The position numbers and the translations under genes were made by a program. The notes beneath the pieces are model-generated. The model did no database searches. It was not told the origin of the DNA and saw only the letters and a program-made list of their open reading frames with translations. From contig CAYLYH010000002.1 of NCBI GenBank assembly GCA_964388155.1, positions 9,887-73,886 of the forward strand: a DNA stretch of 64,000 nucleotides, read 5' to 3'. Within the stretch, counting starts at the first letter, position 1. Every line of letters begins with the position of its first letter. Source of the DNA: an uncultured bacterium (GTDB lineage: Bacteria; Fidelibacterota; Marinisomatia; Marinisomatales; JACNKV01). Positions 7,307 to 64,000 of the stretch are shown piece after piece.

Positions 7307-7308
7307 CG

Positions 7309-29706: not shown

Positions 29707-35347
<5,641 letters not shown>

Positions 35348-48339: not shown

Positions 48340-51300
48340 CTAATCTTTAACCACGATTTTTATTGTTTGAATTGCAAATGGATTAAAATTTAATCGAATC
48401 TCATTTTGGCATATTGGTATATTAGTTATTGGTTCTTCCATTAAATTAGTCAATTCTGCAGATTGTATATCTACTCCAAATTTAAGACTTGCTTCTGCGT
48501 TTTTACCTTCGGATTCATACATCCTGACAACAATACTTTCATTTTCTTCAGATCTTTTTACCGCATCTACAATGATGTTATTCTTATCCGGCTTTACAAA
48601 AGCCCAGTTTGACGGAATGCTTCCATCATGTGGTTTTTCCAGATGATAACTTAACGGAACGTTCAATTCGTATCCGGCATGCACGACATTTCCGTCAATA
48701 TGATTCCCATAATGCGGATACAAGGCATAAGTAAATTTATGTTCTGCCCGATCGGCGGTTGGATCCGGCCATGACGAACTTCTAAGCAGGTTGATATCTA
48801 AAATATTTCCCTCGACAAAATGGCCATATTTACAATCGTTCAACAAAGCAACCCCATAATCCGGCTGAGACAGATCGATCCATTTATGAGCAGATATTTC
48901 AAACTGTCTCAGTTCCCAATCGGTATTATTATGGTTCGGGCGCTTAACATAGCCGTACTGAATTTCGGCTGTGGATTCATTCGTATGAATATCCACAGGA
49001 AAAGCAGTTCGAAGCATTTTTCCGTTTTCCTGCCAATCCACTTGAGTAATAAATTCAATCTTTCTGCTCCCTGCGGTTAAAATGATATCCTGATCAAGTA
49101 CGGATTCTCCAAATTTCTTAGTCTGCCGCATAATTGCTTTAGGTCCGTCAACAAATACTGATGATTCCACCAATTCAAACCGACCCATAACTCGGTGCCT
49201 ATAATCGGTGGAAAAATCCCAGGCATCGCCGTCATCATCACCATAAACTGTGAGGTCATTCCCGTTTTTTCCGGAATATAAAACTTCCCTGCCATACTTC
49301 TTATCAAAGATCGAAGCAATTTTACCATTTTGATGAAACACAACTTTTAAAATATCATTTTCAAGCAAGTTGTCTTTGGCAAGTATGTTCGGGATACTCC
49401 GCTCATCGCTGATGTTTTCAGTAACGGCATGCCCCATAGATGGGACTGAAACCAGCTGCCACTTCTCATTTATTTTCAGCCATTCCCGGCGATCCCATGA
49501 AAGTGTATTGTGCACCACAACTGGATTACGATACTCCTTTGTGTTAATTTTATCATTAACAGATGCTGTGGATAATACCGTTAAAATTTTGGTTTCATTC
49601 ATTAGTACTTTATAACGTTCCAGCGATTCATCATAGACACGTTTGATAGATGATCCGGGAATGATATCATGGAATTGATATAGCAACACCTCTTTCCAAA
49701 TTAGTTCGTATTTTTCCGCAGGATAATCAGACTTGGAAATGATTTGTGCAAGAGCCGATTTAAACTCCGCATCTCTAAGGGAAAATTCCATTTTTCGATT
49801 AAAACGTTTATTTCTTGCTTGAGTTGTGTATGTCCCCTGGTGAAACCCTAAATACAACTCTCCCACCCAAGTGTGATACAAATGAGCATTTCTTTCTAAA
49901 CGCTCAAAGAATTTTTCTACAAATTCCTGTTTTACCGGTGCCATCCCATTTAGGTTCTTTGATCGCTTCAACCTTTCTAAATGATCGGTTCCGGGTCCAC
50001 CACCACCGTCTCCGATCCCGAACAGCATTAAGAAATTATTTGATACATCTTTATCCTGATACTCACGTTCGCCTTTCAATATTGCTCTTGGAGCAGCCGG
50101 GCCGTTGTATGTCGCTTCGGGCGGCATATGCACTAATACTTTTGACCCGTCAATTCCCTGCCAATGAAATGTTTCATGCGGATATTTTACATATTTATCC
50201 CATGATAATTTGGTAGTAACAAAGTAGTCTATTCCGGATTTTTTCATAATTTGTGGTAAAGCTCCGGAATATCCAAATACATCCGGTAAAAATAGATTGG
50301 TCGGTACTTGTCCGAATTCGTCCTGGAAATATTTCTTTCCGTATAAAAATTGTCGCACCAATGACTCTCCGCTTGGAACATTTGTATCTGCCTCCACCCA
50401 CATTCCACCTAATATTTCCCACCGTTTGTCAGCCACCGCTTTTTTTATTCCAGAGTACAATTTCGGGTAGTGGATTTTCATCCATTGATAAAGCTGTGGT
50501 TGACTGGCGCCGAACAAATATTCTGGATATTCAGCCATCATAGCCAGCACGTGTGAAAAAGTTCGAGCTCCCTTTCTAACTGTTTCGCGAATGGGCCATA
50601 ACCATGCCAAATCTATATGGGCATGCCCTAAAGCGCTCACACGAAGCGGATAATCCCCATTTTCCTTGGATAGCTCTACTTGTAAATGTTGCTGGGCTCG
50701 ATCAACTGCCTCTTTGGTAAAATCAACCAGTTCAGCCATAGTCTTATGCATCGAATTGAGAATTTGTCTATAACGGGCAGAGTCTTGTGGTAAGTTTTGC
50801 CATAAATCATAGAGGACTTCGTAATCATAATATAATGCTTCGATATTCCTGTGATGTATCGCAATATAGGCTTCCTTCAATTCGCCACTGTTTTTCAAAT
50901 TCCCAAAGAGATCGTTATTCCCGACATCAGCCCAAATATCGATAGCATCACCTCCGGCTGCATTCGTTATAAACGGGACTACCTTTTTTACGGCTTTTCC
51001 TTCATAAGGATTTCCGAATTGAGTCGCAGTAGTTGTCAAACACAACTTAGGTATGCCGTTCCCATCTACCACATTGGCTTCTCCATTTAGGTCGATTACC
51101 AGTGATATGGTTTTCCCTTTTACAGATTTTGGGACCGTTCCGCAGAACCGCATCCAGGCACAGTCAAATAAATCTCCCCACCTATCCCCCTTTTGCAACT
51201 TTATTTTCTCTCCGGACATTCGCTCAAGATATGAAACCGGTTCTTTGGTTTTCCAGGCTGTCAAATCTAAGTCGACTACATGAGTAAATATATTCTCTTG

Positions 51301-51366
51301 GATTCGTCCAAGAATTTTATCCAGACGATCTAAAACAGGTTGCGTGGTTTGAAGATTCATCTTCAT
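48340..51366 (-). CDS. GH38 alpha-mannosidase (bacterial/cytosolic Man2C1-AMS1 type)
   Basis: Zn ligands LGHAHIDLAWLW, nucleophile FLPDVFGYS, GIGDGGGGP, ELYLGFHQGTYTTQ, QFHDIIPGSSI. No signal peptide. Confidence 0.93.
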   Translation of the reverse strand: MKMNLQTTQPVLDRLDKILGRIQENIFTHVVDLDLTAWKTKEPVSYLERMSGEKIKLQKGDRWGDLFDCAWMRFCGTVPKSVKGKTISLVIDLNGEANVVDGNGIPKLCLTTTATQFGNPYEGKAVKKVVPFITNAAGGDAIDIWADVGNNDLFGNLKNSGELKEAYIAIHHRNIEALYYDYEVLYDLWQNLPQDSARYRQILNSMHKTMAELVDFTKEAVDRAQQHLQVELSKENGDYPLRVSALGHAHIDLAWLWPIRETVRKGARTFSHVLAMMAEYPEYLFGASQPQLYQWMKIHYPKLYSGIKKAVADKRWEILGGMWVEADTNVPSGESLVRQFLYGKKYFQDEFGQVPTNLFLPDVFGYSGALPQIMKKSGIDYFVTTKLSWDKYVKYPHETFHWQGIDGSKVLVHMPPEATYNGPAAPRAILKGEREYQDKDVSNNFLMLFGIGDGGGGPGTDHLERLKRSKNLNGMAPVKQEFVEKFFERLERNAHLYHTWVGELYLGFHQGTYTTQARNKRFNRKMEFSLRDAEFKSALAQIISKSDYPAEKYELIWKEVLLYQFHDIIPGSSIKRVYDESLERYKVLMNETKILTVLSTASVNDKINTKEYRNPVVVHNTLSWDRREWLKINEKWQLVSVPSMGHAVTENISDERSIPNILAKDNLLENDILKVVFHQNGKIASIFDKKYGREVLYSGKNGNDLTVYGDDDGDAWDFSTDYRHRVMGRFELVESSVFVDGPKAIMRQTKKFGESVLDQDIILTAGSRKIEFITQVDWQENGKMLRTAFPVDIHTNESTAEIQYGYVKRPNHNNTDWELRQFEISAHKWIDLSQPDYGVALLNDCKYGHFVEGNILDINLLRSSSWPDPTADRAEHKFTYALYPHYGNHIDGNVVHAGYELNVPLSYHLEKPHDGSIPSNWAFVKPDKNNIIVDAVKRSEENESIVVRMYESEGKNAEASLKFGVDIQSAELTNLMEEPITNIPICQNEIRLNFNPFAIQTIKIVVKD

Positions 51367-51379
51367 AGGGCTTTCTAAT

Positions 51380-53644
51380 CTATTCTCCTATGTATCCATA
51401 GTACCGACCCATCCAATAAGGAAGTAGCCAAAATACGCCACTGCTTTCTACTTTGCCATAGTGTCCTTGATCAGCTATCCATGGATTATCATCCCAGCGA
51501 ACAACTCCTCGTTCAGATGGCGGTAGTAATCGTGCTGTCTGTATTTCTTCTATTTCAGGATAACGGGTAAATCTGACATCTTCACGTCCGGAATTATTCA
51601 CTCTCCAATGGATCAAATCCAGGGGAGCATCTTGTAAAAAATGAATAGATTGGTCAAGATTAGGATTTTCATCGGTACACATTCCATAGATAAAATTAAA
51701 AAATGAACTTTGATCATTTTCGACGGCATGATACCATCGATCCAGACTTTCCCGGTAGATATTTTTTAAGTACGGATCATCTTCTTTCAGCAGCAGGCAA
51801 GGATAAGCCAAAGCTAACAATTCATCATCTATGTGCGTTCGCCAAGACGGATTCAGCGATTTAGCTGTCTTTGTATTTTCTGCATAACCGTGTTCATGAA
51901 TCAATTTAAGGTATTCATCCTGATAACGTTCTTCACCTGAGACATAATATGCCAGTTTTAAGAATGAGAGAATTTCAACGGAGTTAATACCGCGGTCTGC
52001 CTTCCAATCCGGGTCATCATTCAATTTCTCCGGAGACCAAACAGCCCACCGAGTATGTGTCCCGTCAATATCTTTTAGTACAAATCCACTATCAATGATA
52101 TAGTCGACAATTTTGCGGATGTGCTCACGAATATCCGTTTTTTCTTCATCGTTTGCTACTAAATCATAATATAGAAAATAGCCGTACATATGCCCGGTAA
52201 TTTCATCACTGCTGGTATCGCCTTTCCACCACCATTTACCGTTTTGGGATTTACGCCACAATGTTGCCCTGGTCCGCTTTGCCCTTGGATCTCCGACTCT
52301 TTCCGAAGCCCAATCCTGATCGGTTATCCGTCTGTTTTTTTCTTCGATGTTTTTCCACGTAGACGGAATGACCGACCGGGCTACAAATCCATTCGTACTG
52401 GTGACAGTTTGCAGAAATTTCATTGCTGCATAGGCTTTATCGGCATTTTCCTTCGCTTCGGGGTCACCGGTATCCGCATAACGATAGGATTCCATTGCCA
52501 AATACATCCCGGTATATTGTCCGTCATTGTCATTTTCTAACGGCTGCCAAGATGATAAGTCACCCGGCTCAGACAGAAGACATTTTTCTACCAAATAAGG
52601 TTCACGAACATGCCTGGAGTAACATTTATCAAGAATCTCATCGGACTTTTCTTTTAGCGTCATCAAATTCTGCTTTATGATGCTAATCCCCTTGTCGGTA
52701 GCAATTAAGGCATTTCCCTCATCATCAAATATTATATCATTTACTTTATCGTCAAGCAACCAGCGTTTACTACGTCGCACAGACCATGATCCATTATAAA
52801 ACCGCGCTACACCTTTATCTGTCCCTACCCATATTTTTCCATCAGGACTACTTTCCACCACATTCACTGAAGCCGATGGTAATCCTTTTCTAGGCGTGTA
52901 ATGGTTGATTCTTTTACCTTCAGAGTGAACCGTGATGCCGCCCAATCCGCCAATCCAAAATTTATTATTTCCAACATACGCCATATCACGAATATCTGCG
53001 CTGAGAAGTTCTTTCTTATCCTGAATTAGAGCGTAACTTGCTCCATTATAGCGATATAAACCTATCCCGGTTGCAATCCATAATTTATTGTTATATTGTT
53101 TTACCGAGCGGATATTTTTAGAAATCGGAAGTTCGGTAAACGACCATTCTTCATTAGAACATTTCCACTGACCGTCGGGTCCATAAGCATGAATGACCCC
53201 GTTAAGTTCCGCAATTGCAGCGATTGGGGAATGAATATTCTCAACTTTGGTTAACTCTTTTTGGCTTAGTTCGTAAATTCCATTCCATGACCCAATTAGC
53301 AGTGTTCCTTTTGAAGATATAAAAAGATCAAAAACCGGACCTTTATTAGCAGACTCAAATAGGTTTGTCCAAATATTTTTCTCGAAATCATGCTGGTAAA
53401 AACCGGTTTTTGTCCCGCAAAAATATTGATTATTGAATTCCATTATAGTTAATACACATTCACCGTCATTTGAAATAGTATGTGGTTCATGCCATTCTTG
53501 TGTAAAAGGAATATCATAAACAGGAACATTCTCGGAAACTTCCTTAGTGCTGCAGCCTAGCAGAGTAAGCATTGAAGCAAGTAACATAAAAACAGTTATT
53601 TTACGTATTATCTCGACACCACGCTGAAAAAGAATAATAATCAT
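51380..53644 (-). CDS. Uncharacterised lipoprotein: beta-propeller plus helical C-terminal domain (DTSSDE family)
   Basis: Lipobox LLGC. KGLPSASV / WLLDDKV repeats. ENDNDGQYTGMY, KGDTSSDEITGH, WLLPYWMGRYYGYI. Exact start uncertain. Confidence 0.7.
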   Translation of the reverse strand: MIIILFQRGVEIIRKITVFMLLASMLTLLGCSTKEVSENVPVYDIPFTQEWHEPHTISNDGECVLTIMEFNNQYFCGTKTGFYQHDFEKNIWTNLFESANKGPVFDLFISSKGTLLIGSWNGIYELSQKELTKVENIHSPIAAIAELNGVIHAYGPDGQWKCSNEEWSFTELPISKNIRSVKQYNNKLWIATGIGLYRYNGASYALIQDKKELLSADIRDMAYVGNNKFWIGGLGGITVHSEGKRINHYTPRKGLPSASVNVVESSPDGKIWVGTDKGVARFYNGSWSVRRSKRWLLDDKVNDIIFDDEGNALIATDKGISIIKQNLMTLKEKSDEILDKCYSRHVREPYLVEKCLLSEPGDLSSWQPLENDNDGQYTGMYLAMESYRYADTGDPEAKENADKAYAAMKFLQTVTSTNGFVARSVIPSTWKNIEEKNRRITDQDWASERVGDPRAKRTRATLWRKSQNGKWWWKGDTSSDEITGHMYGYFLYYDLVANDEEKTDIREHIRKIVDYIIDSGFVLKDIDGTHTRWAVWSPEKLNDDPDWKADRGINSVEILSFLKLAYYVSGEERYQDEYLKLIHEHGYAENTKTAKSLNPSWRTHIDDELLALAYPCLLLKEDDPYLKNIYRESLDRWYHAVENDQSSFFNFIYGMCTDENPNLDQSIHFLQDAPLDLIHWRVNNSGREDVRFTRYPEIEEIQTARLLPPSERGVVRWDDNPWIADQGHYGKVESSGVFWLLPYWMGRYYGYIGE

Positions 53645-53664
53645 TGCTTTAATTTAACTAAACT

Positions 53665-54672
53665 ATGGAAATTATAAGATATAATATTTCACTTTCTACT
53701 AAAAATAACGGCTTTCTAATTAAAAGCAGAAATAAAGATAACAATTTGAGCACCACTTTCCATCTCCCGTCCGGGGTGTGGCCTGTCATGCTGACTCCAT
53801 TCGATCAGAATAAAAAGATCGACTGGGACGTATTGCCTTCTTTAGTCGAACACTATATTAAATCCGGAGCAGATGGACTCTTTGCTGTCTGCGGCTCAAG
53901 TGAAATGTTTGAACTATCATGGTCCGAACGTCTAATGCTGACAGAACACATTATCAAGATTGTCGATAAGAGATTACCGGTGATTGTTAGCGGCATTTTT
54001 GGGGATAATATTATTCAGCAATCTGAACACGTACATGAAATGTACGGAGTTGGTGCGAATGCAATCATATTACTGGTTAATCAGCTTGCAGGGGAAAAAG
54101 ATTCTGAGGATATCTGGATACAAAATGCCGAAGAATTATTATCCAAAACAGATGATATACCGTTAGGATTGTATGAATGCCCTTCTCCGTATCATCGACT
54201 GATTTCACCTGAATTACTAAAATGGACAAGTAGTACAAACCGATTTTATTGGATAAAAGAAACTTCTGAAAATATCGACAGTCTCAGAAATAAAATTCAT
54301 ACTGTTTCCGATTCTCGATTTCACATCTTTAATGCCGATTCCAGAATTCAGCTTGATGCTCTCCTTACCGGCGCCAAGGGTTATTGTGGAATAGCAACAA
54401 ATTATTACTCTGATCTTATAAATTGGTTAAATAACAATCACGCATCTAAACAAAAACTGGCAAAAGGTATCCAACAGTTTATGAATAAAACGCACGCAGT
54501 TATTAATCATAAATACTTATCTTCTGCAAAATATTATGCGAAAATATCCGGCGTTCCGATCAGAACAACATGCCGCTCCACGAATGAAATACTCACACAA
54601 TCAGATATTGAGCAACTAGATAATTTGAAAAACCAACACGAACATTGGCAACAAATATTAAACTTAAACTAA
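53665..54672 (+). CDS. Dihydrodipicolinate-synthase/N-acetylneuraminate-lyase (class I aldolase) family protein
   Basis: GVWPVMLTPF, DGLFAVCGSSEMFELS, Tyr in LYECPSPY, Schiff-base Lys in WIKETS. True start may be TTG 53746. Confidence 0.85.
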   Translation: MEIIRYNISLSTKNNGFLIKSRNKDNNLSTTFHLPSGVWPVMLTPFDQNKKIDWDVLPSLVEHYIKSGADGLFAVCGSSEMFELSWSERLMLTEHIIKIVDKRLPVIVSGIFGDNIIQQSEHVHEMYGVGANAIILLVNQLAGEKDSEDIWIQNAEELLSKTDDIPLGLYECPSPYHRLISPELLKWTSSTNRFYWIKETSENIDSLRNKIHTVSDSRFHIFNADSRIQLDALLTGAKGYCGIATNYYSDLINWLNNNHASKQKLAKGIQQFMNKTHAVINHKYLSSAKYYAKISGVPIRTTCRSTNEILTQSDIEQLDNLKNQHEHWQQILNLN

Positions 54673-54682
54673 GGAGAAACTA

Positions 54683-56233
54683 ATGGCACTTCACTGGATT
54701 GATTTAACCGTATTGATAGGATATTTGGCTCTTGTAGCCGGTATGGGAGTTTACTTCTCAAGGAAAAATGTCAGCACCGAGGAATATTTTGTAGGTGGTC
54801 GATCATTTTCCGGTTGGGTAATCGGATTAAGTTTAGTAGGAACCTCAATTAGCTCGATAACGTTTCTCTCCTTCCCCGCTGATGCATTCAAAACCACCTG
54901 GATTCGGTTTATTACAACATGGTCTATGCCTTTAGGCTTGCTTATAGCTGCATACGTATTTTTACCGTTTTTCCGACGTCGTCGAATCACTTCAGCTTAT
55001 GAGTATCTTGAGGAGCGTTTCGGTCCATCCGTCAGAGTCTACGGAGGAATTACATTTATCATCTCTCAATTGGTTAGAGTAAGTCTGATCCTCTATCTTG
55101 TCTCATTGCTCATGCATGAAATGACCGGGCTTTCACCTATCGTTAGCGTACTTATCAGCGGAGTATTTGTTGCGCTTTATACTATCATCGGAGGAATCAA
55201 GGCTGTGATTTGGACTGATGTCATACAAACGGTTGTGCTGGTCTTAGGTGGCTTATTAACGCTTGGTGTAATCGTCTATCACCTCCCGGGCGGATTGGGA
55301 CAAATTTTCTCTGTAGCCTTTGCTGATGGAAAATTGTCTTTATCAGAATTAACAGATGAGAATGTGTTCAGACCTATTGAATGGAATTTTTCTATCACCA
55401 AAAAAACAGGTACAATGCTTTTTTTAGTAGGACTTACAAATTGGTTGACTGAGTATAGTGCTAATCAAAATACTGTTCAACGCTATGCCGCAGCTAAAAG
55501 TACTTATGAAGCTCGAAAGGCTATGCTTGTATGCGTTTTGTCCAGCTTGCCAATCTGGGCGTTTTATATGTTTATCGGAACATCCCTTTATGTATTCTTC
55601 CAAGTCTTTCCTACAACTGAAGCCGCACAAATGCTTTCCGGAGAGCTAAAAGCTGAACAGATATTTCCTTACTTTATCATGAATTATCTTCCCCCCGGAC
55701 TTACAGGACTTGTTATTGCAGCCGCAATGGCCGCCGCAATGTCCTCTCTGGATTCAAGTATTAACGCTATTTCCACCGTCGGTATTGTTGATATCTATCG
55801 TCGACACTTAGTAAAAGATAAGGACGATAATCACTATTTAAGAATTGCCTGGCTTATTGCCGGAGGAGCTGCTGTATTTATGATCGGCGGTGCTATCATT
55901 CTAACAATGTCAAAAACAAAAACTTTGCAAGATACGGCTACAATATTAGCATCGATCACCAGTGGAGGCCTACTGGGATTGTATCTTGTCGGATTCTTTA
56001 CCCGGAAAGGAAGCGCCCGCTCAGTTTGGATAGGTCTGATCGTTACCTTTTTCTTCTCCCTGTGGACAATCTTAGCTAGCCGTGGATTAGTCCCCGATTG
56101 GCTGTCGGTTCCCTTCGATTTATACTACACAGGATTAATCGGAAATATCATCATGTTCGCTTTGGCTGTCGTTGCCGCTATCATGCTGTCTGATCGCCGA
56201 AAAATACTTAAGAATTTGACGATTTGGGATTAG
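54683..56233 (+). CDS. Sodium:solute symporter, sialic-acid (SiaT-like) clade by motif resemblance
   Basis: YFVGGRSFSGWVIGLSLVGTSISSITFLSFPADAF, SAYEYLEERFG, NQNTVQRYAAAKS, AAAMSSLDSSIN. Substrate not established. Confidence 0.88.
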   Translation: MALHWIDLTVLIGYLALVAGMGVYFSRKNVSTEEYFVGGRSFSGWVIGLSLVGTSISSITFLSFPADAFKTTWIRFITTWSMPLGLLIAAYVFLPFFRRRRITSAYEYLEERFGPSVRVYGGITFIISQLVRVSLILYLVSLLMHEMTGLSPIVSVLISGVFVALYTIIGGIKAVIWTDVIQTVVLVLGGLLTLGVIVYHLPGGLGQIFSVAFADGKLSLSELTDENVFRPIEWNFSITKKTGTMLFLVGLTNWLTEYSANQNTVQRYAAAKSTYEARKAMLVCVLSSLPIWAFYMFIGTSLYVFFQVFPTTEAAQMLSGELKAEQIFPYFIMNYLPPGLTGLVIAAAMAAAMSSLDSSINAISTVGIVDIYRRHLVKDKDDNHYLRIAWLIAGGAAVFMIGGAIILTMSKTKTLQDTATILASITSGGLLGLYLVGFFTRKGSARSVWIGLIVTFFFSLWTILASRGLVPDWLSVPFDLYYTGLIGNIIMFALAVVAAIMLSDRRKILKNLTIWD

Positions 56234-56240
56234 TAAGCAT

Positions 56241-58142
56241 ATGCTAGAAAAACAACAAGTCGAATCAATACTAAGGAATATCCGTAGTGTTAAAATTTCC
56301 GTATATGGCGATTTTTGTCTGGATGCTTACTGGTTCATGGATCCGCGCGGCTCAGAAATATCAGTGGAAACTGGTTTAATGGCAGAAGCAGTCACCAGAC
56401 AAAAATATTCTCTGGGCGGTGCCGGTAATATCGTTGCCAATTTAGCTGCACTAAATCCGGCGGAAATTCAATCGATCGGTGTAATCGGGGATGATATATT
56501 CGGTCGCGAGCTTTTGCAGATATTGCAGAGATTAGGTGTAAAAACTTCTGGACTGACCATACAAAAGGATGACTTTGACACTGTTGTCTTCAGTAAACGA
56601 TATTTGCGAGGAGAAGAACAACCCCGTATTGACTTTGGTTTTTTCAATCAACGTTCTAAAGAAACAGATACAATTCTACTTAATTCATTTAAATTGGCAC
56701 TAGAATCTTCGGATGTGCTTATCCTAAATCAGCAAGTCCCCGGAAGCATTACAAATCCTCATTTCATTGATAAACTTAACCAACTAATTGCTGAATATCC
56801 CGACAAACTTGTATTGCTGGACTCTCGTCACTACTCCGATAATTTCAGCAACGTTTTTCTAAAAATAAATCAAGTTGAAGCTGCAATTCTGAACAACAGA
56901 AATGCCAATCCGGATGATACGTTTTCTTCAGCAGACTTAAAAGTTTTTGCTTCTGAACTCCACAAAATTTACCACAGACCCATATTTATCAGTCGTGGAG
57001 AGCACGGTCTGATTGGAACGGATAACAACGTTGAGTTTGAGGTATCAGGAATTCAGCTTGTAAATCAAGTGGATCCAGTCGGAGCTGGAGATACGATGCT
57101 CAGTGCCCTTGCATGTTGTCTGGGAGCAGGAGAATCCTCAGCTACTGCCGCAGAATTTGCAAATTATGCTTCGGCGGTAACAGTTCAGAAGTTGTTTCAA
57201 ACAGGGACTGCCTCCGGTGAAGAAATTCTGGATTTAGTTAATGAAGCTACATTCATTTATAATCCGGAATTGGCCGAAATCCCAGGCAAAGCCGAATATT
57301 TAACCGGTTCGCAAATTGAAATCTGTGTAGACACTAGGGACCTCCCCAGCGGTAATATTACACATGCTGTCTTTGATCACGACGGAACAATCAGTGTACT
57401 CAGAGAAGGTTGGGAAACAATCATGGAGCCCATGATGGTTAAGGCTATTCTTGGAGATGAGTATCATTCCGCAAATATATCATTCCGCAGTAAAGTAGCT
57501 GCCCGTGTCCGTAGTTTTATCGATAATACTACTGGAATCCAAACCATTCTCCAAATGGATGGTTTAGTTGATATCATCAAAGAATTTGGTTTTGTACCAA
57601 AAAATAAAATTCTTGATAAATTCGAATACAAAGCAATTTACAACGATGCTCTAATGAAGTCCGTAAATGAAAGAATTACAAAATTGAAAAATGGGCAAAT
57701 GACTCCCGTAGATTTTTCAGTACCGGGCAGTATTACATTCCTAAAAGATTTGCGCGAGCGCGGAATAACGCTATATCTCGCCAGCGGAACCGATGTGGAC
57801 GACGTCATTAATGAAGCGGAAATTATGGGGTATGCAGATCTGTTTAACGGCGGGATCTATGGAGCAGTCGGTGATGTAAGTAAATACTCCAAGAAAAAAG
57901 TTCTGCAGGAGATCATGGCAAAAAACAAATTGAATGGCCCTGAGCTAATCACATTTGGAGACGGTCCTGTAGAAATACGTGAGTGTGTGAAAAATAAAGG
58001 AATTGCCGTTGGAATTGCCAGTGATGAAAAACATCCGGGACAACTTGAAAAAAACAAACGTTGCCGATTGATAAAAGCCGGTGCAAAATTGATTGCCAGA
58101 GATTTTCTAGAATCAGAAATATTAATAAATTTATTAACATAA
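56241..58142 (+). CDS. HldE/RfaE-type PfkB sugar kinase fused to a HAD-superfamily phosphatase
   Basis: Kinase: [42 protein letters not shown]: motif I VFDHDGT, motif II LASGT, motif IV FGDGPVE. No adenylyltransferase domain. Confidence 0.85.
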
Positions 58143-58152
58143 GAGGTATAAA

Positions 58153-59100
58153 ATGAGAATTATTGTAACCGGCGGTGCCGGAATGATTGGCAGTAATATC
58201 GTCAAAGGATTGAACAAACAGGGATATGAAAATATTATTGTCGTTGATAATCTCACAGATGGAAAGAAATTCCATAATATTGCAGATTGTCAAATATCGG
58301 ATTATATCGACAAAGATGCTTTTATAAAATTAATCGTCGATGAGAATGAACTTGGTGAGATTAAAGCAGTTTTTCACGAAGGTGCCTGTTCCGTTACGAC
58401 AGAATGGAACGGTAAATACATGCTGAATAATAATTTTACCTACTCCAAGGAACTCTTGCACTACTGTCTGTGGCGAAATATCCCATTTTATTATGCTTCA
58501 TCGGCGGCAACATACGGAAATAGCACCACTTTTAAAGAGGAACCGAAATTTGAACTCCCGATCAATGTCTACGGATATTCCAAATACCTCTTCGATCAGT
58601 ATATTCGACACCGTGAAACCAATTTCGAAAGCCAGGTAGTTGGGTTTCGATACTTTAACGTGTACGGTCCGCGTGAGCAGCATAAAGGTAGTATGGCTAG
58701 TGTCGCTTTTCATTTAAATAATCAAATCGAAAAAGGCGAGAATCCAAAACTTTTTACCGGTAGTGACGGATATGCAGATGGAGAGCAGCGTCGGGATTTT
58801 ATTTACGTGGGAGATACCGTTGACGTAAATCTCTGGATGCTTGAACATCCTGAAGTATCAGGGATCTTTAATATCGGTACAGGGAGAAGCCAAACCTTCA
58901 ATGAGGTCGCTCAGGCAGTCACCGATTTTCACGGAAAAGGGCAAATTGAGTACATTCCCTTCCCTGATCATTTAAAAGACAGTTATCAAAGTTTCACCGA
59001 AGCTGATATTTCTAAATTACGGAAAGCAGGATACGATAAGCCATTCAAATCCGTGCAAGATGGCGTCGCCGAATATATGAATTGGCTGCACAGATCGTAA
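58153..59100 (+). CDS. hldD: ADP-L-glycero-D-manno-heptose 6-epimerase
   Basis: [76 protein letters not shown]. Confidence 0.93.
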
Positions 59101-59132
59101 TTCTTAACTCCAAGCCAGTAAAGGTGATTTCT

Positions 59133-61673
59133 ATGAATAGCAAAACTCTTCACATATTTCTTCTTTCTTTTATACTAATTGTAGCTTCTTGTTACACTCC
59201 AATCGGCCAACCTACTGAGCAATGGAAAGACACGATTGATGGGAAAGTTGAAGTTATTCTGAACCAAATGACGTTGGAAGAAAAAATCGATCTCTTGGGG
59301 GGAGAAGGATTTAAAACCTCTAAAAACGAACGTCTTGGCATTCCTGAATTAGTTATGACCGACGGTCCGCTCGGTCCAAACTCAAACGGACTTTCAACCA
59401 ATTATTCATCAATGATTAATCTTGCTGCTAGTTTTGACACTCATTTGATGCGAAGGGTTGCCATTAATATCGGACAGGAGACCAGAATCAAAGACCGCAA
59501 TATGCTTTTGGGACCTTGCTTGAATATCGCTCGAGCACCTCATGCAGGACGAACATTTGAAGGTTTTGGCGAAGACCCATATCTTGTTTCAAGAATGGCT
59601 GTAGAATTTGTAAAAGGCGTTGAGAGCCAGGGTGTGGCAACGTGTACTAAACATTTTGTGGCCAATAATCAAGAATGGAACCGCTTTGATGTGGATGCCC
59701 GCATTAGTGAGCGAGCTTTACACGAAATATATTTCCCGGCGTTCAGAGCCGCTGTCATCGAAGCAGATGGATCAACAATCATGGCAGCCTATAACCAAAT
59801 TCTAGGAGATTATAGTACGGAGAGTCACTATACGCTTACTGATATTCTGAAAAATGAGTGGGGATTCACCGGGGTGGCAGTATCAGACTGGGGTGGCGCA
59901 CGAACAACGGTAAAAATGGCTAATTCCGGTCTTGATCTGGAAATGCCGACAGGAATTCATTACAATGAAAAATTAATTAAAGCTATCAAAGACGGATCAG
60001 TCACTCAAAATACAGTTGATGACAAAGTACGTCGAATTTTACGAGTTATGATGAAAAAGGGATTATTCAACCAACCTAAAAATTTATTTGCAGAGGATAC
60101 ATCTAATACTCCGGAACGCCGTGCACTGGCATTAGAAACCGCTCAAAAAAGTATTGTCCTGCTTAGGAATGGAGGTGATTTTCTTCCACTAGATGCAGCA
60201 AAGATCAAATCGATCGCTATTATCGGGCCCAATGGCAACGTAGCTCAAATGCACGGCGGAGGAAGCGGAAGTTTGACGGGTCATTATGGTATATCACCTT
60301 TGGAAGGAATAAGTAACAAAGTCGGAGATTCCATCTCTGTTAAGTTTGCTCGCGGTGTTGTTGAAGAGAGCAAAGACCTGCCAATTGCTGGTGCGGAACA
60401 TTATTTTCTCCAGGACGGAAGTCCCGGAATCTATGCTGAGTATTTTAATAATCGAGAGCAGAAAGGCGAGCCGGTATATACCTGCATAGAAACTGACATC
60501 GATTTTGATTGGGGGTTCGGTGGAGACAAAGGTGGTCCCGGCTCTCCGAAGCCAGGTGTCGTTAATCTGGAAAAATGGTCGGCTCGCTGGACCGGTAAGT
60601 TCGCCTCTCCCGGTGATGGTTGGTATGAATTTGGACTCAGATCTGATAACGGTGTTCGTATGTATATCGACGGGAAAAAGGTTCTGGATTACTGGGTAGA
60701 TTCCAAACCCGGACAATTTAAAATCATCCGGTATAAATTCGAAGCTGATAAACTCTATGATCTACAGGTGGATTTCTATGAGAATATCGGTAGTTGCCGT
60801 TGCCGCTTAGGATTTGCTCCGTTTGATTACGGTAACAAATTGGATGAAGCTGTCGAAGTCGCCACAAAGGCTGACATTACTATTCTCTGCCTTGGGTTAA
60901 ATATGTTCATGGAGGGGGAAGCCGTTGATCGGGATGAACTGGATTTACCAGTAGATCAATTAGCCCTATTGGATGCTATTACGGCTGTTAATCAAAATAC
61001 AATTGTGGTGTTAAACAACGCCACGCCGATCCTGATGAACGATTGGCTGGATAAAGTTCCGGCTGTTGTAGATGCCCTGTATCCGGGACAGGAAGGCGGG
61101 AATGCATTGGCTGATATACTTTTCGGGGATGTAAATCCTTCCGGACGACTTCCATTGACTTTTCCGCAAAAATGGGAAGACACACCGGTTAAAGATACAT
61201 ATCCGGGTGTAAAGGCTTTTGCCGAATACAAAGAAGGAATTTTTGTCGGATACCGGCATTATGATAAATACAACATAGAGCCGGAATTCCCATTCGGTCA
61301 CGGACTGTCTTACACTACATTTGAGTATAGCAATATAGAAATTGATAATATTCGTACAAACCCCGGTGGTCAAATGTATATCGTTTCAGTAACTGTAGAA
61401 AACACTGGTGAAGTATTCGGCGAAGAAGTTGTCCAACTGTATATCAAGGATGTCAAGTCAAGTGTGGAACGTGAGTCTAAGGCGTTGAAAGGATTTAAAC
61501 GAATTGCTTTGATACCGGGCGAGTCCAAAACCGTTTCGCTGGAAATAAAGTCCGATGATTTGAGCTTTTTCCATCCTGAAAAAAAGAAATGGATTGTTGA
61601 GCCGGGAGAATTTGAAGTAATGATAGGCAGCTCCTCACGGGATATTCGTCTTACGGAAATAGTCACTTACTAA
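59133..61673 (+). CDS. GH3 beta-glucosidase-family lipoprotein with inserted PA14 domain and C-terminal FnIII
   Basis: Lipobox VASC. GRTFEGFGEDP, KHFVANNQE, nucleophile VSDWG, PA14 insert (EYFNN...DFDWG...SDNGVRMYIDG), FPFGHGLSYTTFEY. Start ATG 59133; the ORF extends to 59082. Confidence 0.92.
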   Translation: MNSKTLHIFLLSFILIVASCYTPIGQPTEQWKDTIDGKVEVILNQMTLEEKIDLLGGEGFKTSKNERLGIPELVMTDGPLGPNSNGLSTNYSSMINLAASFDTHLMRRVAINIGQETRIKDRNMLLGPCLNIARAPHAGRTFEGFGEDPYLVSRMAVEFVKGVESQGVATCTKHFVANNQEWNRFDVDARISERALHEIYFPAFRAAVIEADGSTIMAAYNQILGDYSTESHYTLTDILKNEWGFTGVAVSDWGGARTTVKMANSGLDLEMPTGIHYNEKLIKAIKDGSVTQNTVDDKVRRILRVMMKKGLFNQPKNLFAEDTSNTPERRALALETAQKSIVLLRNGGDFLPLDAAKIKSIAIIGPNGNVAQMHGGGSGSLTGHYGISPLEGISNKVGDSISVKFARGVVEESKDLPIAGAEHYFLQDGSPGIYAEYFNNREQKGEPVYTCIETDIDFDWGFGGDKGGPGSPKPGVVNLEKWSARWTGKFASPGDGWYEFGLRSDNGVRMYIDGKKVLDYWVDSKPGQFKIIRYKFEADKLYDLQVDFYENIGSCRCRLGFAPFDYGNKLDEAVEVATKADITILCLGLNMFMEGEAVDRDELDLPVDQLALLDAITAVNQNTIVVLNNATPILMNDWLDKVPAVVDALYPGQEGGNALADILFGDVNPSGRLPLTFPQKWEDTPVKDTYPGVKAFAEYKEGIFVGYRHYDKYNIEPEFPFGHGLSYTTFEYSNIEIDNIRTNPGGQMYIVSVTVENTGEVFGEEVVQLYIKDVKSSVERESKALKGFKRIALIPGESKTVSLEIKSDDLSFFHPEKKKWIVEPGEFEVMIGSSSRDIRLTEIVTY

Positions 61674-61703
61674 AATTCGATTGATGGAAAATATTTAACT
61701 ACT

Positions 61704-63812
61704 ATGATGTTCTCTTATCAATTTATTCTTGGCGGAGTAGTTTTTGCAGTAGGCATGATTATTGCATACCGACAGGGATATTTCAGTTTCGCCGAAAATG
61801 GTTTACGGAACTTGCTGTTTGTCATGGTTCCGCTACTGTTCTATTTTGTACTTCAGGGATATTTGCAATTCGGGAGTTTCTCTTCCTCTCCTTCATCTTC
61901 TTTCAGCGGAACAATCACAGGAAAACGGATGATGGGTGCTCCCGTTGATTATGGGATTATGATATTTTATTTCATGATAATCCTTACAATCGGAACTTAT
62001 TTCGGAAGAAGACAAAAAACCGTCAAAGACTTCTTTTTCGGCGGACAACGATTCTCATGGTGGCTGATCACATTCAGTTTAATTGCGACCACCGTTGGTT
62101 CCTATAGCTTCGTAAAATACAGCAGGGTCGCTTTTTCCTATGGATTAGGCAGCAGCCAAACTTACCTTAACGACTGGATATGGCTACCACTTTTGCTTTT
62201 CGGCTGGCTTCCGATTCTATATTTTTCAAGGATAACTTCGATCCCCGAATATTTTGAACGCCGGTTTGACCGCACGATCAGAAAATGGGTAACAGCATTT
62301 GTCCTGATATATCTGATCGGCTATGTTGGAGTAAATTTGTTCACAATGGGAAAAGTTCTTAATATTCTTTTAGGTTGGCCCATTCTTACCGCAGCAATTG
62401 TCGTAGCGACAATCTCTGCTATTTATGTTACTGCCGGCGGACAAACCAGCGTGATTATGACCGATTTGTTTCAGGGTTTAATGCTCTTGGCAACCGGAGT
62501 GATGATCCTGTTTCTCGGCATTCATTATCTCGGCGGACTAGATTCCTTTTGGCAAAACCTTCCCCGTCCGCATAAATTGGCTTTCCCTAACTTTAACGAA
62601 GACCCAGCCTTCCCTTCCGTCGGTATATTCTGGCAGGACGGCATTGCCAATACGGCTATGTTCTATTTTCTTAATCAGGGAGTGCTTATGCGCTTTATGT
62701 CTACAAAGTCTCTCAATGATGGGCGGAAGGCTATTTTTACAGTGGTATTGGTATTGATGCCGATTGCTGCTTGTGTAGTAGCTTCCGGAGGATGGGTAGC
62801 AAAAGCACTTGTTCATGCTGGTGTCCTACCGGGGAATATCCGCGCGGACGAAGCCTTTTTTATCGCTTCTGATTTTCTGAGTCGACCGGGCATATTTGGG
62901 TTAATCTTAGCCACGATGACAGCTGCCCTAATGTCTACCGTGGATACCTTGATTACGGCTGTGGCTGCCATTGTCGTCAATGATATTTACAAACCGCTGT
63001 TCAGACCCAATGCAAATGAAAAGCAGTTACTGAAAATGGCAAGAATCAGTTCCGTTTCAGTCACATTATTAGGAATATCACTCGTTCCGGTCTTCATGTC
63101 TTTTAAGACAATCTATGCCGCTCACGGAGCATTCACTGCCGCCGTAACTCCCCCTTTGGTAATTGCACTACTCTTTAGTGTATTTTGGAAACGATTTACA
63201 CAAAAGGCTGCACTATATACACTTGTTGGCGGAATGGGAGCTATCGTCTTTTCTCTTTTTGTCCCAGAAGTGATTATCCCGTTTGCTCATGGAGTTCCAA
63301 TGCAGGAAACCGGAGATGGACTTTTCGACGGAATGAAACAGTTTAAGTTCATGCGAGCTTTTTACGGACTGTCTGCCAGTGCAATAATCGGTTTTACCGT
63401 CACACTATTTACAAAACCAGAATCTTTTAAACGACAACGAGGATTGGTTTGGGGAACAGTTAAAGATGCCATTATAAATTACAAAGGCTCTCCTGGTAAG
63501 GAATCTGGCACCAAAACAAGTTTAGCGTTACCTCTAATCGCCAATCGCCCTGCGAAGATTACAGGAACAGGGAATCTCCCTCTTGTTAATATCTCCCGTA
63601 CGTTGGCTGAAACACTGGAAGCTATTCTCGGTGATTTACTTTACATTAGTGATAGACGATGGTGGCTGGGCGGATTACATTCTACGCATGCCGTGGTCGG
63701 GAGTGTATTAAATAATTCTGAAAAAATAATTGAATTAGACAGAGAGACAAGTCAACTGGTTATCCTTAAAAATAGACTCACTCAAGAAGTGTTGGTGGAG
63801 AGACTATATTAA
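61704..63812 (+). CDS. Sodium:solute symporter with extra N-terminal two-TM segment and soluble C-terminal domain
   Basis: The SSS core starts near DYGIMIFYF (FFFGGQRFSW, EYFERRF, GGQTSVIMTDLFQG, ALMSTVDTLIT). About 80 extra N-terminal aa and about 110 extra C-terminal aa (GDLLYISDRRWWLGGLHSTHA). Confidence 0.85.
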   Translation: MMFSYQFILGGVVFAVGMIIAYRQGYFSFAENGLRNLLFVMVPLLFYFVLQGYLQFGSFSSSPSSSFSGTITGKRMMGAPVDYGIMIFYFMIILTIGTYFGRRQKTVKDFFFGGQRFSWWLITFSLIATTVGSYSFVKYSRVAFSYGLGSSQTYLNDWIWLPLLLFGWLPILYFSRITSIPEYFERRFDRTIRKWVTAFVLIYLIGYVGVNLFTMGKVLNILLGWPILTAAIVVATISAIYVTAGGQTSVIMTDLFQGLMLLATGVMILFLGIHYLGGLDSFWQNLPRPHKLAFPNFNEDPAFPSVGIFWQDGIANTAMFYFLNQGVLMRFMSTKSLNDGRKAIFTVVLVLMPIAACVVASGGWVAKALVHAGVLPGNIRADEAFFIASDFLSRPGIFGLILATMTAALMSTVDTLITAVAAIVVNDIYKPLFRPNANEKQLLKMARISSVSVTLLGISLVPVFMSFKTIYAAHGAFTAAVTPPLVIALLFSVFWKRFTQKAALYTLVGGMGAIVFSLFVPEVIIPFAHGVPMQETGDGLFDGMKQFKFMRAFYGLSASAIIGFTVTLFTKPESFKRQRGLVWGTVKDAIINYKGSPGKESGTKTSLALPLIANRPAKITGTGNLPLVNISRTLAETLEAILGDLLYISDRRWWLGGLHSTHAVVGSVLNNSEKIIELDRETSQLVILKNRLTQEVLVERLY

Positions 63813-63920
63813 TTCCTCACCGCCATAACCCGTACTTAAAGACCACTTAAGAATTAAGATTTGGATTTGTTTTTAGGTCTCCCTTACTCCTTACTCCTTT
63901 TCTCCGTTTTGCGTATTCGC

Positions 63921-64000
63921 TTACTTTACTTTGATATCCAGCTCATCCAAAAGCATGATTAGGCTGTCCGGATAGTCAGTAATAATACCGTTCACACCTA
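63921..64000 (-). CDS. C-terminal end of a glycerophosphodiester phosphodiesterase (GDPD); 5' part outside the window
   Basis: Hand translation of the minus strand gives GVNGIITDYPDSLIMLLDELDIKVK*. GVxGIITDYPD is the classic GDPD C-terminal motif. Confidence 0.75.
   Translation of the reverse strand, partial: GVNGIITDYPDSLIMLLDELDIKVK

What the first reader, a model, noticed from the sequence alone, without database searches (positions are those of the whole stretch)
56241..58142. Heptokinase-like domain fused to a non-GmhB HAD phosphatase instead of the adenylyltransferase
Seen: an RfaE-domain-I-like kinase (with EISVETG where HldE has RISPEAP) joined to a DHDGT-type HAD that lacks the GmhB Zn-binding Cys motif, directly upstream of hldD. 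Known: canonical HldE is kinase + adenylyltransferase and GmhB is separate. Inference: one polypeptide converts heptose-7P via the 1,7-bisphosphate to heptose-1P, or runs a salvage or catabolic equivalent. gmhA and hldC are not in the window.
Basis: partly seen in the sequence, partly recalled or inferred. Interest (0 to 1): 0.7.

Follow-up and report, generated by a model that had tools for sequence, protein, structure and literature searches.

The report
Heptose-type kinase fused to capped phosphatase
A real, widespread but unstudied two-part enzyme (a relative of the LPS heptose kinase joined to a phosphatase- or mutase-type domain) sits with a heptose epimerase gene in a sugar-uptake operon, and probably recycles or breaks down seven-carbon sugars, for which no pathway is known.

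Summary
ORF 56241-58142 (+) encodes an intact 633-aa protein. Its N-terminal half is a PfkB kinase whose nearest characterised relative, by sequence and by fold, is HldA/HldE domain I. Its C-terminal half is a C1-capped class-I HAD domain with a beta-phosphoglucomutase-like fold, not GmhB. A true hldD follows 10 nt downstream.

The fusion does not replace missing LPS enzymes: this genome already has canonical HldA, GmhB, HldC, a GmhA-like isomerase just under the curated cut-off, and two heptosyltransferases.

The fusion belongs to a large uncharacterised family found in at least 500 species genomes, mostly Planctomycetota and Bacteroidota. Outside Marinimicrobia it is not next to hldD. Its usual partners are a GSU2086-family protein (which lies between hldE and gmhA in Geobacter), an AGE-family isomerase/epimerase and often a GmhA-like isomerase.

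In three Marinimicrobia lineages the kinase/HAD lies one to three genes from a true hldD; a fourth lineage has only a divergent look-alike. One lineage carries the kinase and HAD as separate adjacent genes. Relatives without the fusion lack hldD.

Best reading (about 45%): an accessory heptose salvage or catabolic module inside a glycan-degradation operon. Substrate and regiochemistry are untested.

The parts
56241..58142 (+). Kinase-HAD fusion gene (633 aa), called FUS in this report
   Evidence: Intact ORF. It has PfkB and HAD domains. Homologues of 53-72% identity occur in hundreds of genomes. AF2 model: pLDDT 87, pTM 0.79.
56274..57230 (+). HldA-like PfkB kinase domain (residues 12-330)
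   Evidence: Scores 122 bits on TIGR02198, below the 345 cut-off. Foldseek's top hit is HldA. It shares these invariants with HldA/HldE: GD..D.Y, GGA, RxD, NxxE and GAGD (nt 57081-57092). It forms its own clade with 99/99 support.
56355..56375 (+). Lid motif EISVETG, which aligns to RISPEAP of HldA/HldE
   Evidence: E39 is invariant in 35 fusion proteins. Arg is invariant in the 10 canonical HldA/HldE sequences aligned.
57363..58100 (+). C1-capped class-I HAD domain (residues 375-620)
   Evidence: Motif I is DHDGT (nt 57375-57389), motif II is LASGT, followed by K551 and GDGPVE. A helical cap of about 125 residues lies between motifs I and II. Foldseek's top hit is beta-phosphoglucomutase 6hdj (E 8e-9). 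No GmhB-family hit was found.
58153..59100 (+). hldD, ADP-glycero-manno-heptose 6-epimerase
   Evidence: It passes both NCBIfam equivalog cut-offs. It is 64% identical to E. coli RfaD. It is the only hldD in the genome. True hldD is absent from 11 of the 13 relatives tested (intact in G164, a remnant in G063).
53665..54672 (+). DapA/NanA-family class-I aldolase-like gene, first gene of the operon
   Evidence: Pfam DHDPS, E 4e-30, with no equivalog hit. Orthologues lie directly upstream of the fusion in L018 (overlapping its start) and L044, and upstream of hldD in G068.
54683..56233 (+). Sodium:solute symporter SSS1
   Evidence: Pfam SSF. Orthologues of 62-66% identity occur in KSB1 (L069), Calditrichaceae (L044) and G068 (L103): one ORF upstream of the fusion in L069 and L044, and three genes upstream of the unfused kinase in L103.
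59082..61673 (+). GH3 glycosidase with PA14 insert. The true start is probably Met18, near nt 59133.
   Evidence: Pfam GH3 N and C domains, PA14 and Fn3-like. Syntenic in the same-genus genome G164.
61704..63812 (+). Second SSS symporter, last gene of the co-directional run
   Evidence: Pfam SSF. Syntenic in G164.
48340..51366 (-). GH38 alpha-mannosidase-family glycosidase on the opposite (minus) strand, upstream of the operon
   Evidence: All four GH38 domains are present. GH38 genes also lie beside the fusion or kinase in L018, L021, L080 and G068.
51380..53644 (-). Unclassified 754-aa protein of the 'c7' family (its paralogue is at 45938-48292)
   Evidence: Only weak Reg_prop hits. The same family flanks the fusion in Dyadobacter and Cerina together with YdjC and DUF3748.

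Best explanation
FUS is one member of a large, uncharacterised family of two-domain sugar-phosphate enzymes.

Shown:
- The N-terminal domain is a PfkB kinase. Its nearest characterised relative is the anomeric heptose kinase HldA/HldE-I.
- The C-terminal domain is a C1-capped class-I HAD phosphotransferase.
- In this genome the protein is not the LPS heptose kinase/phosphatase, because canonical copies exist elsewhere.
- It is an accessory gene, rare in its phylum.
- It lies in a tightly spaced operon: NanA-like aldolase, Na+ symporter, FUS, hldD, GH3, second symporter. GH38, BNR, GH2 and GH123-like glycosidase genes lie nearby.

Inferred mechanism:
1. Glycero-manno-heptose is released from foreign glycans, such as LPS cores, and imported.
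2. The kinase domain phosphorylates the beta-anomeric O-1 of the heptose or of its 7-phosphate.
3. The HAD domain either removes the 7-phosphate (GmhB-like logic) or acts as a beta-phosphoheptomutase between the 1- and 7-phosphates.
4. The housekeeping HldC makes ADP-heptose.
5. The adjacent HldD interconverts ADP-L,D- and ADP-D,D-heptose.
6. Foreign heptose is then either reused for the cell's own LPS or passed through GmhA to sedoheptulose 7-phosphate.
For: Kinase identity:
- rfaE_dom_I is the best family hit (E 2e-35, against 4e-17 for ribokinase).
- HldA is the top solved structure.
- HldA-type motifs are conserved.

HAD identity:
- Capped class-I fold, closest to beta-PGM and sugar phosphatases.

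Not needed for LPS here:
- Canonical HldA, GmhB, HldC and two GT9 genes are present, plus a GmhA-like isomerase under its cut-off.

Accessory gene:
- Full-length fusion found in 2 of 150 other Marinimicrobia genomes, plus one unfused kinase; absent from the two same-genus genomes G095 and G165.

Link to heptose:
- Among 15 genomes of the order, 14 have HldA, HldC, GmhA, GmhB and GT9 matches. True HldD occurs only in G000 and G164, the two with the FUS operon, plus a 180-aa remnant in G063.
- L018 has DHDPS-FUS-x-x-hldD with hldC nearby.
- G019 has the operon HldC-like, HldD-like, AGE, GSU2086, GmhA-like, FUS, with no other HldA, GmhA or GmhB found.
- G068 has SSS1, DHDPS-like, HldD, an unfused kinase, an unfused HAD, GH38 and GmhA-like.
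- GSU2086, the neighbour in 58 of 80 loci, lies between hldE and gmhA in Geobacter.
- All six FUS or kinase+HAD genomes tested that lack GSU2086 have a true HldD. No tested carrier lacks both.

Catabolic context:
- Symporters, GH38, GH3, GH2, BNR_2 and GH123-like genes surround the operon.
- Similar contexts occur in other phyla.
Against: - There is no biochemical evidence for any step.
- The invariant Glu replacing the lid Arg of RISPEAP shows the substrate site differs from HldA.
- The kinase falls far below the equivalog cut-off (122 vs 345) and forms a separate clade.
- In 52 Planctomycetota loci the gene lies among housekeeping genes with AGE and GSU2086, not in obvious catabolic loci.
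- An AGE-family partner acts on unphosphorylated sugars and has no place in the known heptose pathway.
- The surrounding window also fits degradation of sialylated or fucosylated mannose glycans, so the substrate could be a manno-hexose.
- HldD may have been retained from an ancestral hldC-hldD pair (remnant in G063) and not recruited.
- HldD requires ADP-heptose, yet no nucleotidyltransferase is in this operon.
Confidence: 0.45

Rival explanations
1. Alternative biosynthetic route. FUS is a fused HldA+GmhB analogue that makes beta-D,D-heptose 1-phosphate from the 7-phosphate for ADP-heptose. It would serve LPS or a second heptose-containing glycan, and its position in a catabolic operon would be incidental.
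For: In G019 the FUS operon also carries HldC-like, HldD-like and GmhA-like genes. No other HldA, GmhA or GmhB is found there, although two GT9 genes exist. Bacteroidota MAGs G157 and G160 have FUS plus GmhA-like but no separate HldA. The kinase is closest to HldA.
Against: Ten of the 14 genomes searched, plus this genome itself, also have canonical HldA or HldE, so it would be redundant there. Cerina litoralis has FUS and GmhA-like but no HldC. Symporters and glycosidases are co-operonic. The lid Arg is replaced by Glu.
Confidence: 0.2
2. A different manno-configured substrate. FUS acts on a hexose or amino sugar released in sialo-, fuco- or manno-glycan catabolism, for example mannose or ManNAc from a NanA-like cleavage. 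The heptose-type neighbours are paralogues recruited for that sugar.
For: The window holds BNR_2 sialidase-fold proteins, GH2, a GH123-like protein, GH38, GH3, a NanA-like aldolase and SiaT-like symporters. The frequent partners are AGE-family epimerase (52 of 80 loci), ROK kinase, DHDPS and FucI/FGGY. These resemble the Bacteroides-type nanL/nanE(AGE)/rokA logic (my own knowledge). Glu in place of the lid Arg fits a substrate without a distal phosphate.
Against: The adjacent HldD is 64% identical to E. coli RfaD and passes the equivalog cut-offs. The GmhA-like and GSU2086 partners point to C7 phosphates. No NanK, NanE or NagA logic requires a kinase-phosphatase pair.
Confidence: 0.2
3. Mechanistic variant of the best explanation. 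The HAD domain is a beta-phosphoheptomutase, not a phosphatase. The kinase makes beta-heptose 1-phosphate from free heptose, or makes the 1,7-bisphosphate that primes the mutase. The mutase then equilibrates the 1- and 7-phosphates without loss of phosphate.
For: The ten best structural matches of the HAD domain are beta-phosphoglucomutases (E 8e-9 to 6e-8). A mutase would avoid a futile kinase/phosphatase cycle. The lid Arg-to-Glu change fits a substrate without a 7-phosphate. With GmhA this gives a complete route to sedoheptulose 7-phosphate. Earlier notes of this scan raised the same idea; these are not independent evidence.
Against: Capped phosphatases (AlnB, YniC, HDHD1A) score almost as well. 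Sequence identity to beta-PGM is only 14-17%. No mutase-specific residues were tested.
Confidence: 0.12
4. The fusion is an assembly or gene-calling artefact, or a decaying gene.
For: None found.
Against: The same 630-640-aa architecture occurs in hundreds of genomes from several phyla, with 71% mean column identity. The AF2 model is confident. The operon is syntenic in G164.
Confidence: 0.01

Closest known systems
HldA / HldE domain I with GmhB, in the ADP-L-glycero-beta-D-manno-heptose pathway (GmhA, HldE or HldA+HldC, GmhB, HldD)
   Same: PfkB fold. HldA is the best sequence family and the best solved structure. Conserved motifs: GDxxLDxY, GGA, RxD, NxxE and GAGD. A kinase is followed by an Asp-nucleophile HAD enzyme. 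It is genomically linked to hldD, GmhA-like and, in some genomes, HldC-like genes.
   Different: It scores 122 bits against a 345 cut-off and forms a separate clade. The lid Arg of RISPEAP is Glu. The partner domain is a C1-capped class-I HAD rather than the capless, zinc-loop GmhB, and it is fused to the kinase in place of the adenylyltransferase. It sits in transport and glycosidase operons and coexists with the canonical enzymes.
Beta-phosphoglucomutase (PgmB) and related C1-capped HAD sugar phosphatases (AlnB, YniC, HDHD1A)
   Same: Best structural matches of the HAD half (target TM 0.72-0.74). It has the DxD motif I and a helical cap inserted directly after motif I.
   Different: Only 14-17% identity. 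The cap is larger (about 125 residues). No family model matches above its cut-off. It is fused to a kinase.
The uncharacterised GSU2086-containing heptose-type cassette (Geobacter gmhA-GSU2086-hldE; PfkB::HAD + GSU2086 +/- GmhA-like in many phyla)
   Same: FUS is an orthologue (53-60% identity) of the PfkB::HAD member of that cassette.
   Different: This genome has no GSU2086-family gene at all. It has no adjacent GmhA-like or AGE gene. A proteobacterial-type HldD occupies the neighbouring slot.
Bacteroides-type sialic-acid utilisation cluster (NanA-family lyase, AGE-family epimerase, ROK kinase, transporter); comparison from my own knowledge
   Same: A NanA-family aldolase and a SiaT-like symporter lie upstream. 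AGE and ROK genes are frequent partners in other phyla. Sialidase-fold genes are nearby.
   Different: None of these genes reaches an equivalog score. No known sialic-acid route uses an HldA-like kinase, a HAD domain or HldD.

Membership tests
HldA / HldE domain I (TIGR02198, heptose-7-phosphate kinase) | PfkB fold with catalytic GAGD Asp and NxxE motif | tested here: met
   Pfam PfkB, E 1e-27. GAGD at residues 281-284 and N210..E213 are invariant and shared with HldA.
HldA / HldE domain I (TIGR02198, heptose-7-phosphate kinase) | Score above the curated equivalog cut-off | tested here: not met
   122.2 bits against 345. The genome's own HldA scores 355.
HldA / HldE domain I (TIGR02198, heptose-7-phosphate kinase) | Lid motif (D/E)RISPEAP with conserved Arg | tested here: not met
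   The motif reads EISVETG. Glu39 is invariant in 35 family members, and Arg is invariant in the 10 canonical sequences aligned.
HldA / HldE domain I (TIGR02198, heptose-7-phosphate kinase) | Falls inside the HldA/HldE clade | tested here: not met
   The FUS kinases plus the unfused G068 kinase form their own clade (99/99), apart from the HldA/HldE clade.
HldA / HldE domain I (TIGR02198, heptose-7-phosphate kinase) | [quoted passage not shown] | not testable with these tools
   Requires an enzyme assay.
GmhB (HAD-IIIA heptose-1,7-bisphosphate phosphatase) | HAD core with DxDGT nucleophile motif | tested here: met
   FDHDGT at residues 378-383. D379 and D381 are invariant.
GmhB (HAD-IIIA heptose-1,7-bisphosphate phosphatase) | Capless (C0) architecture and a match to the TIGR01656/TIGR00213 models | tested here: not met
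   A helical C1 cap of about 125 residues lies between motifs I and II. No GmhB model hit was found, even at E 10. The genome's real GmhB-type gene is on contig C21.
GmhB (HAD-IIIA heptose-1,7-bisphosphate phosphatase) | Cys/His zinc-binding loop (present in many GmhB proteins; my own knowledge) | tested here: not met
   Only Cys362, Cys582 and Cys608 are present, with no CxH...CxC cluster.
Beta-phosphoglucomutase-like class-I (C1-capped) HAD | Rossmannoid core with a helical cap inserted after motif I | tested here: met
   Foldseek's top 10 hits are beta-PGM structures (E 8e-9 to 6e-8, target TM about 0.72).
Beta-phosphoglucomutase-like class-I (C1-capped) HAD | Mutase activity through a bisphosphate intermediate | not testable with these tools
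   Fold alone does not separate mutases from phosphatases. AlnB and YniC score nearly as well.
HldD (neighbour gene 58153-59100) | Above the equivalog cut-offs and close to a characterised enzyme | tested here: met
   NF008360 515 > 452 and TIGR02197 448 > 274.6. 64% identical to E. coli RfaD.
PfkB::HAD + GSU2086 (+AGE, +/-GmhA-like) cassette | A GSU2086-family gene next to the fusion | tested here: not met
   Present in 58 of 80 loci elsewhere, but there is no GSU2086-family match anywhere in this genome.

The most novel reading that the evidence does not exclude
The operon and its neighbours form a utilisation locus for the inner core of foreign lipopolysaccharide (Kdo plus L-glycero-D-manno-heptose).

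- Sialidase-fold proteins and the NanA-like aldolase would deal with Kdo.
- GH38 and the 'c7' proteins would act as heptosidases.
- FUS (anomeric heptose kinase plus beta-phosphoheptomutase or phosphatase), HldC, HldD and GmhA would run the ADP-heptose pathway 'backwards'. They would epimerise L,D- to D,D-heptose and deliver it to the cell's own LPS or to sedoheptulose 7-phosphate.

This would be the first described heptose salvage or catabolic pathway. HldD and the GSU2086 family would be alternative solutions for the C-6 epimerisation.
Probability: 0.22. Interest if true: 0.85.

Novelty: new variant of a known kind. Interest (0 to 1): 0.6.

Why it matters
Glycero-manno-heptoses are signature sugars of Gram-negative envelopes, and ADP-heptose is an innate-immune signal. 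I found no paper describing a route for their salvage or catabolism, nor any characterising this fusion family.

The family is very conserved and occurs in at least 500 species genomes. It recurs in sugar-uptake operons of Planctomycetota, Bacteroidota and marine candidate phyla. Knowing its substrate would fill in a widespread and unannotated piece of carbohydrate metabolism.

The Marinimicrobia variant described here is especially informative. It pairs the fusion with a bona fide HldD, where other lineages have the unknown GSU2086 protein. This ties the module to C-6 epimerisation of heptose. It also gives a concrete hypothesis for the function of GSU2086.

Tried and rejected
1. FUS as a stand-in for missing HldA/GmhB. 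Rejected for this genome: canonical HldA, GmhB-type phosphatase, HldC and two GT9 genes exist, plus a GmhA-like isomerase under its cut-off.
2. A general FUS-hldD association. Rejected outside Marinimicrobia: tblastn with the window's HldD hits only one of the 80 loci, L018, itself Marinimicrobia.
3. HAD as a GmhB- or KdsC-type domain. Rejected: there is only a weak hit to AQ2171 (E 0.008-0.36), no GmhB model hit, and the fold is capped.
4. Reading the HldA structure paper to learn which residues bind the 7-phosphate. The paper is not held. The role assigned to the lid Arg therefore rests on analogy with other PfkB enzymes, from my own knowledge.
5. Names or structures for the GSU2086 family. 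All 120 listed homologues are 'hypothetical'. The only PDB hits are weak, to ArgZ-type proteins and an uncharacterised protein.
6. Terminator and promoter scan of 53000-64000. It found no more sites than in shuffled sequence, so the operon call rests on the 7-30 nt gaps.
7. Literature searches for the fusion, heptose catabolism or salvage, and LPS-core degradation. Nothing relevant was found.
8. Placing the FUS clade as sister to HldA. Not resolved, because the three outgroup PfkB sequences sit on very long branches.
Full report
**What is in the sequence.** ORF 56241-58142 (+) encodes an intact 633-aa protein. Pfam finds a PfkB kinase domain (residues 50-317, E 1e-27) and a HAD hydrolase domain (residues 375-579). 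The best NCBIfam model is rfaE_dom_I (TIGR02198, E 2e-35). It scores only 122 bits against a cut-off of 345; ribokinase follows at E 4e-17.

- EISVETG at residues 39-45
- GAGD at residues 281-284
- DHDGT at residues 379-383
- LASGT and GDGPVE further along the HAD domain

The HAD half has only three scattered cysteines, so it has no GmhB-type zinc loop.

The operon has short gaps:
- 10 nt between the DHDPS-like gene and SSS1
- 7 nt between SSS1 and FUS
- 10 nt between FUS and hldD
- an overlap or short gap between hldD and GH3
- 30 nt between GH3 and the second SSS gene

hldD passes both curated cut-offs. It is 64% identical to E. coli RfaD and is the only hldD in the genome.

**The two domains.** An AlphaFold2 model of the whole protein (pLDDT 87) matches B. 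cenocepacia HldA best (E 3e-24, target TM 0.85). Ribokinases follow at about 1e-18.

I aligned 35 family members with 10 canonical HldA/HldE kinases.
- Shared invariants: GDxxLDxY, S41/E43 of the lid, GGA, T114, R129-x-D131, D194, N210..E213, GAGD and N308.
- Family-specific changes: Glu39 where HldA has the Arg of RISPEAP, K119 for Arg, E126 for Gln, G133 for Glu, and Q164 for Asp.

In a tree, the fusion kinases form their own clade (99/99), apart from HldA/HldE.

The HAD half was modelled alone (pLDDT 88). It has a helical cap of about 125 residues after motif I. Its best structural matches are beta-phosphoglucomutases (E 8e-9, target TM 0.73), followed closely by capped sugar phosphatases. 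No GmhB-family model matches it. The HAD chemistry (phosphatase or mutase) remains open.

**It is not a replacement for missing LPS enzymes.** It carries:
- a canonical HldA with ERISQEAPVPV (355 > 345 bits)
- a stand-alone HldC (206 > 181.5 bits)
- a GmhA-like isomerase (182 bits, under the 209.45 cut-off)
- a GmhB-type phosphatase (112 > 84 bits)
- two GT9 heptosyltransferases

**Distribution.** Full-length homologues of 53-72% identity are abundant. Of the best 80 loci, 52 are Planctomycetota and 18 are Bacteroidota, including cultured Dyadobacter and Cerina litoralis. The rest are Calditrichaceae, KSB1, Marinimicrobia and unclassified MAGs.

Mean column identity across phyla is 71-77%. Within Marinimicrobia the gene is rare. 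The full-length fusion is in 2 of 150 other genomes, plus one unfused kinase. It is absent from same-genus genomes G095 and G165.

**Neighbourhoods.** I called ORFs in the 80 loci and clustered them, then repeated the survey with tblastn.
- A GSU2086-family protein is present in 58 of 80 loci, usually directly upstream on the same strand.
- An AGE-family epimerase/isomerase is present in 52 of 80.
- A GmhA-like SIS isomerase is present in 10 of 80.
- In Bacteroidota there are also ROK kinase, DegT aminotransferase, Gfo/Idh/MocA, PhoPQ-related, YdjC and DUF3748 genes. The 750-aa 'c7' family that flanks GH38 in this window is there too.
- hldD is next to the fusion in only one of the 80 loci, L018, also Marinimicrobia.

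The GSU2086 family takes its name from the G. sulfurreducens gene between hldE (GSU2085) and gmhA (GSU2087) (PMC5585712). This is an independent link between the commonest partner and heptose genes.

**Marinimicrobia show the heptose link most clearly.**
- L018 has DHDPS overlapping FUS, then two small ORFs, then hldD (525 bits), with hldC nearby.
- G164, of the same genus, has the whole syntenic operon.
- G019 has one co-directional run: HldC-like, HldD-like, AGE, GSU2086, GmhA-like, FUS, and a glycoside-3-dehydrogenase-like gene. A search with concatenated canonical proteins found no other HldA, GmhA or GmhB in that 95%-complete genome, although two GT9 genes exist.
- G068 has SSS1, DHDPS-like, HldD (400 > 274.6 bits), an unfused HldA-like kinase (366 aa) and an unfused HAD (309 aa). 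These are followed by GH38, GmhA-like, FucI-like, DUF3748, MFS and BNR_2 genes. This split version confirms that the two domains work together. It also shows that they belong with hldD and gmhA-like genes inside a catabolic locus.

**hldD tracks the fusion.** I searched 15 genomes of the order.
- Fourteen have HldA, HldC, GmhA, GmhB and GT9 matches.
- True HldD is found only in G000 and G164, plus a 180-aa remnant next to hldC in G063.

Most relatives therefore appear to build LPS without C-6 epimerisation. The epimerase persists only where the fusion operon is present.

A GSU2086-family gene is absent genome-wide from G000, G164, G161, G068 and two Dyadobacter genomes. All six of these have a true HldD. 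It is present in carriers without a true HldD, such as G151 and Cerina. No tested carrier lacks both. The sample is small and partly non-independent.

**Most other carriers have both systems.** Planctomycetota (G151, G152, G158, G159), Dyadobacter, a Calditrichaceae MAG, G156 and L018 all carry canonical HldE/HldA in addition to FUS, most with GmhA and GmhB alongside. FUS is therefore a second, paralogous system and not a universal substitute.

**Context in the window.** Upstream lie GH2, an SSS symporter, a GH123-like protein, two BNR_2 sialidase-fold proteins, two 'c7' proteins and GH38. Downstream lie GH3 and another symporter.

SSS1 has orthologues of 62-66% identity in KSB1, Calditrichaceae and G068: one ORF upstream of the fusion in the first two, and three genes upstream of the unfused kinase in G068. 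The setting is uptake and degradation, not envelope synthesis.

**Interpretation.** The best-supported reading is an accessory heptose-handling module, for salvage and/or catabolism.
1. The kinase domain phosphorylates the anomeric position of a glycero-manno-heptose or its 7-phosphate.
2. The HAD domain removes or relocates the second phosphate.
3. HldC and HldD equilibrate the ADP-L,D and ADP-D,D forms.
4. GmhA provides the exit to sedoheptulose 7-phosphate.

The domain identities, distribution, synteny and co-occurrence are shown. The substrate, regiochemistry and direction are inferred.

The main rivals are:
- a purely biosynthetic alternative route, best supported in G019
- a different manno-configured substrate from sialo-, fuco- or manno-glycan breakdown

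The Glu-for-Arg change in the lid and the AGE partner argue that the chemistry is not identical to HldA/GmhB.

**Literature and earlier notes.** I found no paper on this fusion, or on heptose salvage or catabolism. Earlier notes of this scan describe the same PfkB::HAD + GSU2086 cassette in other phyla and reach similar readings. They are AI notes and do not count as independent evidence.

What this window adds is the HldD-bearing, GSU2086-free variant and the order-level co-occurrence of hldD with the fusion.

Noticed in passing
window 45938-48292 and 51380-53644 (both on the minus strand): Two paralogous proteins of about 750-780 aa with only weak Reg_prop hits flank GH38. The same family ('c7') lies directly beside the fusion in Dyadobacter and Cerina, together with YdjC and DUF3748 genes. 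It is a candidate new glycosidase family that travels with the module.
   Followed up: partly
G063:C9:71059-72047 (L118:5003-6132): A 180-aa C-terminal remnant of hldD (76% identical to the window's HldD) lies next to hldC in a relative that lacks the fusion. True hldD is missing from 11 of the 13 relatives tested (intact in G164, this remnant in G063), although 12 of the 13 have HldA, HldC, GmhA, GmhB and GT9 matches (G047 has none).
   Followed up: partly
own genome C3:2389-3267 and C3:3467-3634 (L011, L006): A third PfkB kinase, whose best model is also rfaE_dom_I (97.6 bits), lies next to a 205-aa SIS-domain gene with a weak GmhA match. In the tree it sits on a long branch outside both the HldA and FUS clades.
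   Followed up: no
L102 (G019:C40) 7065-9410, compared with Planctomycetota loci: The AGE and GSU2086 proteins of a Marinimicrobia genome are 72-75% and 63-65% identical to Planctomycetota orthologues. This is unusually high across phyla and suggests lateral spread of the cassette or very strong constraint.
   Followed up: no
own genome C46:10290-13070 (L104) and L102:12081-13460: In this genome, the AGE-family gene that elsewhere partners the fusion lies on another contig. It sits beside a glycoside-3-dehydrogenase-like gene (BT_2158 family, below cut-off). The same dehydrogenase type follows the fusion in G019.
   Followed up: no
L044:2308-5924 and L103:9059-10768: FucI-family isomerases (with an FGGY kinase in L044) lie in the same loci as the DHDPS-like aldolase and SSS1. 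This fits either L-fucose use or D-arabinose from Kdo cleavage.
   Followed up: no
window 59082-59133: The listed TTG start of the GH3 gene overlaps hldD by 19 nt. A Met followed by a signal-peptide-like stretch (MNSKTLHIFLLSF) begins at about nt 59133 and is the more likely start.
   Followed up: no
window 40250-41338 and 44756-45916 (minus strand); 41302-44688: Two BNR_2 sialidase-fold proteins and a large beta-propeller protein with a GH123-like catalytic domain lie upstream, with GH2 (31337-35347) and a further SSS symporter (29707-31335). The locus is a multi-enzyme glycan-degradation island.
   Followed up: partly
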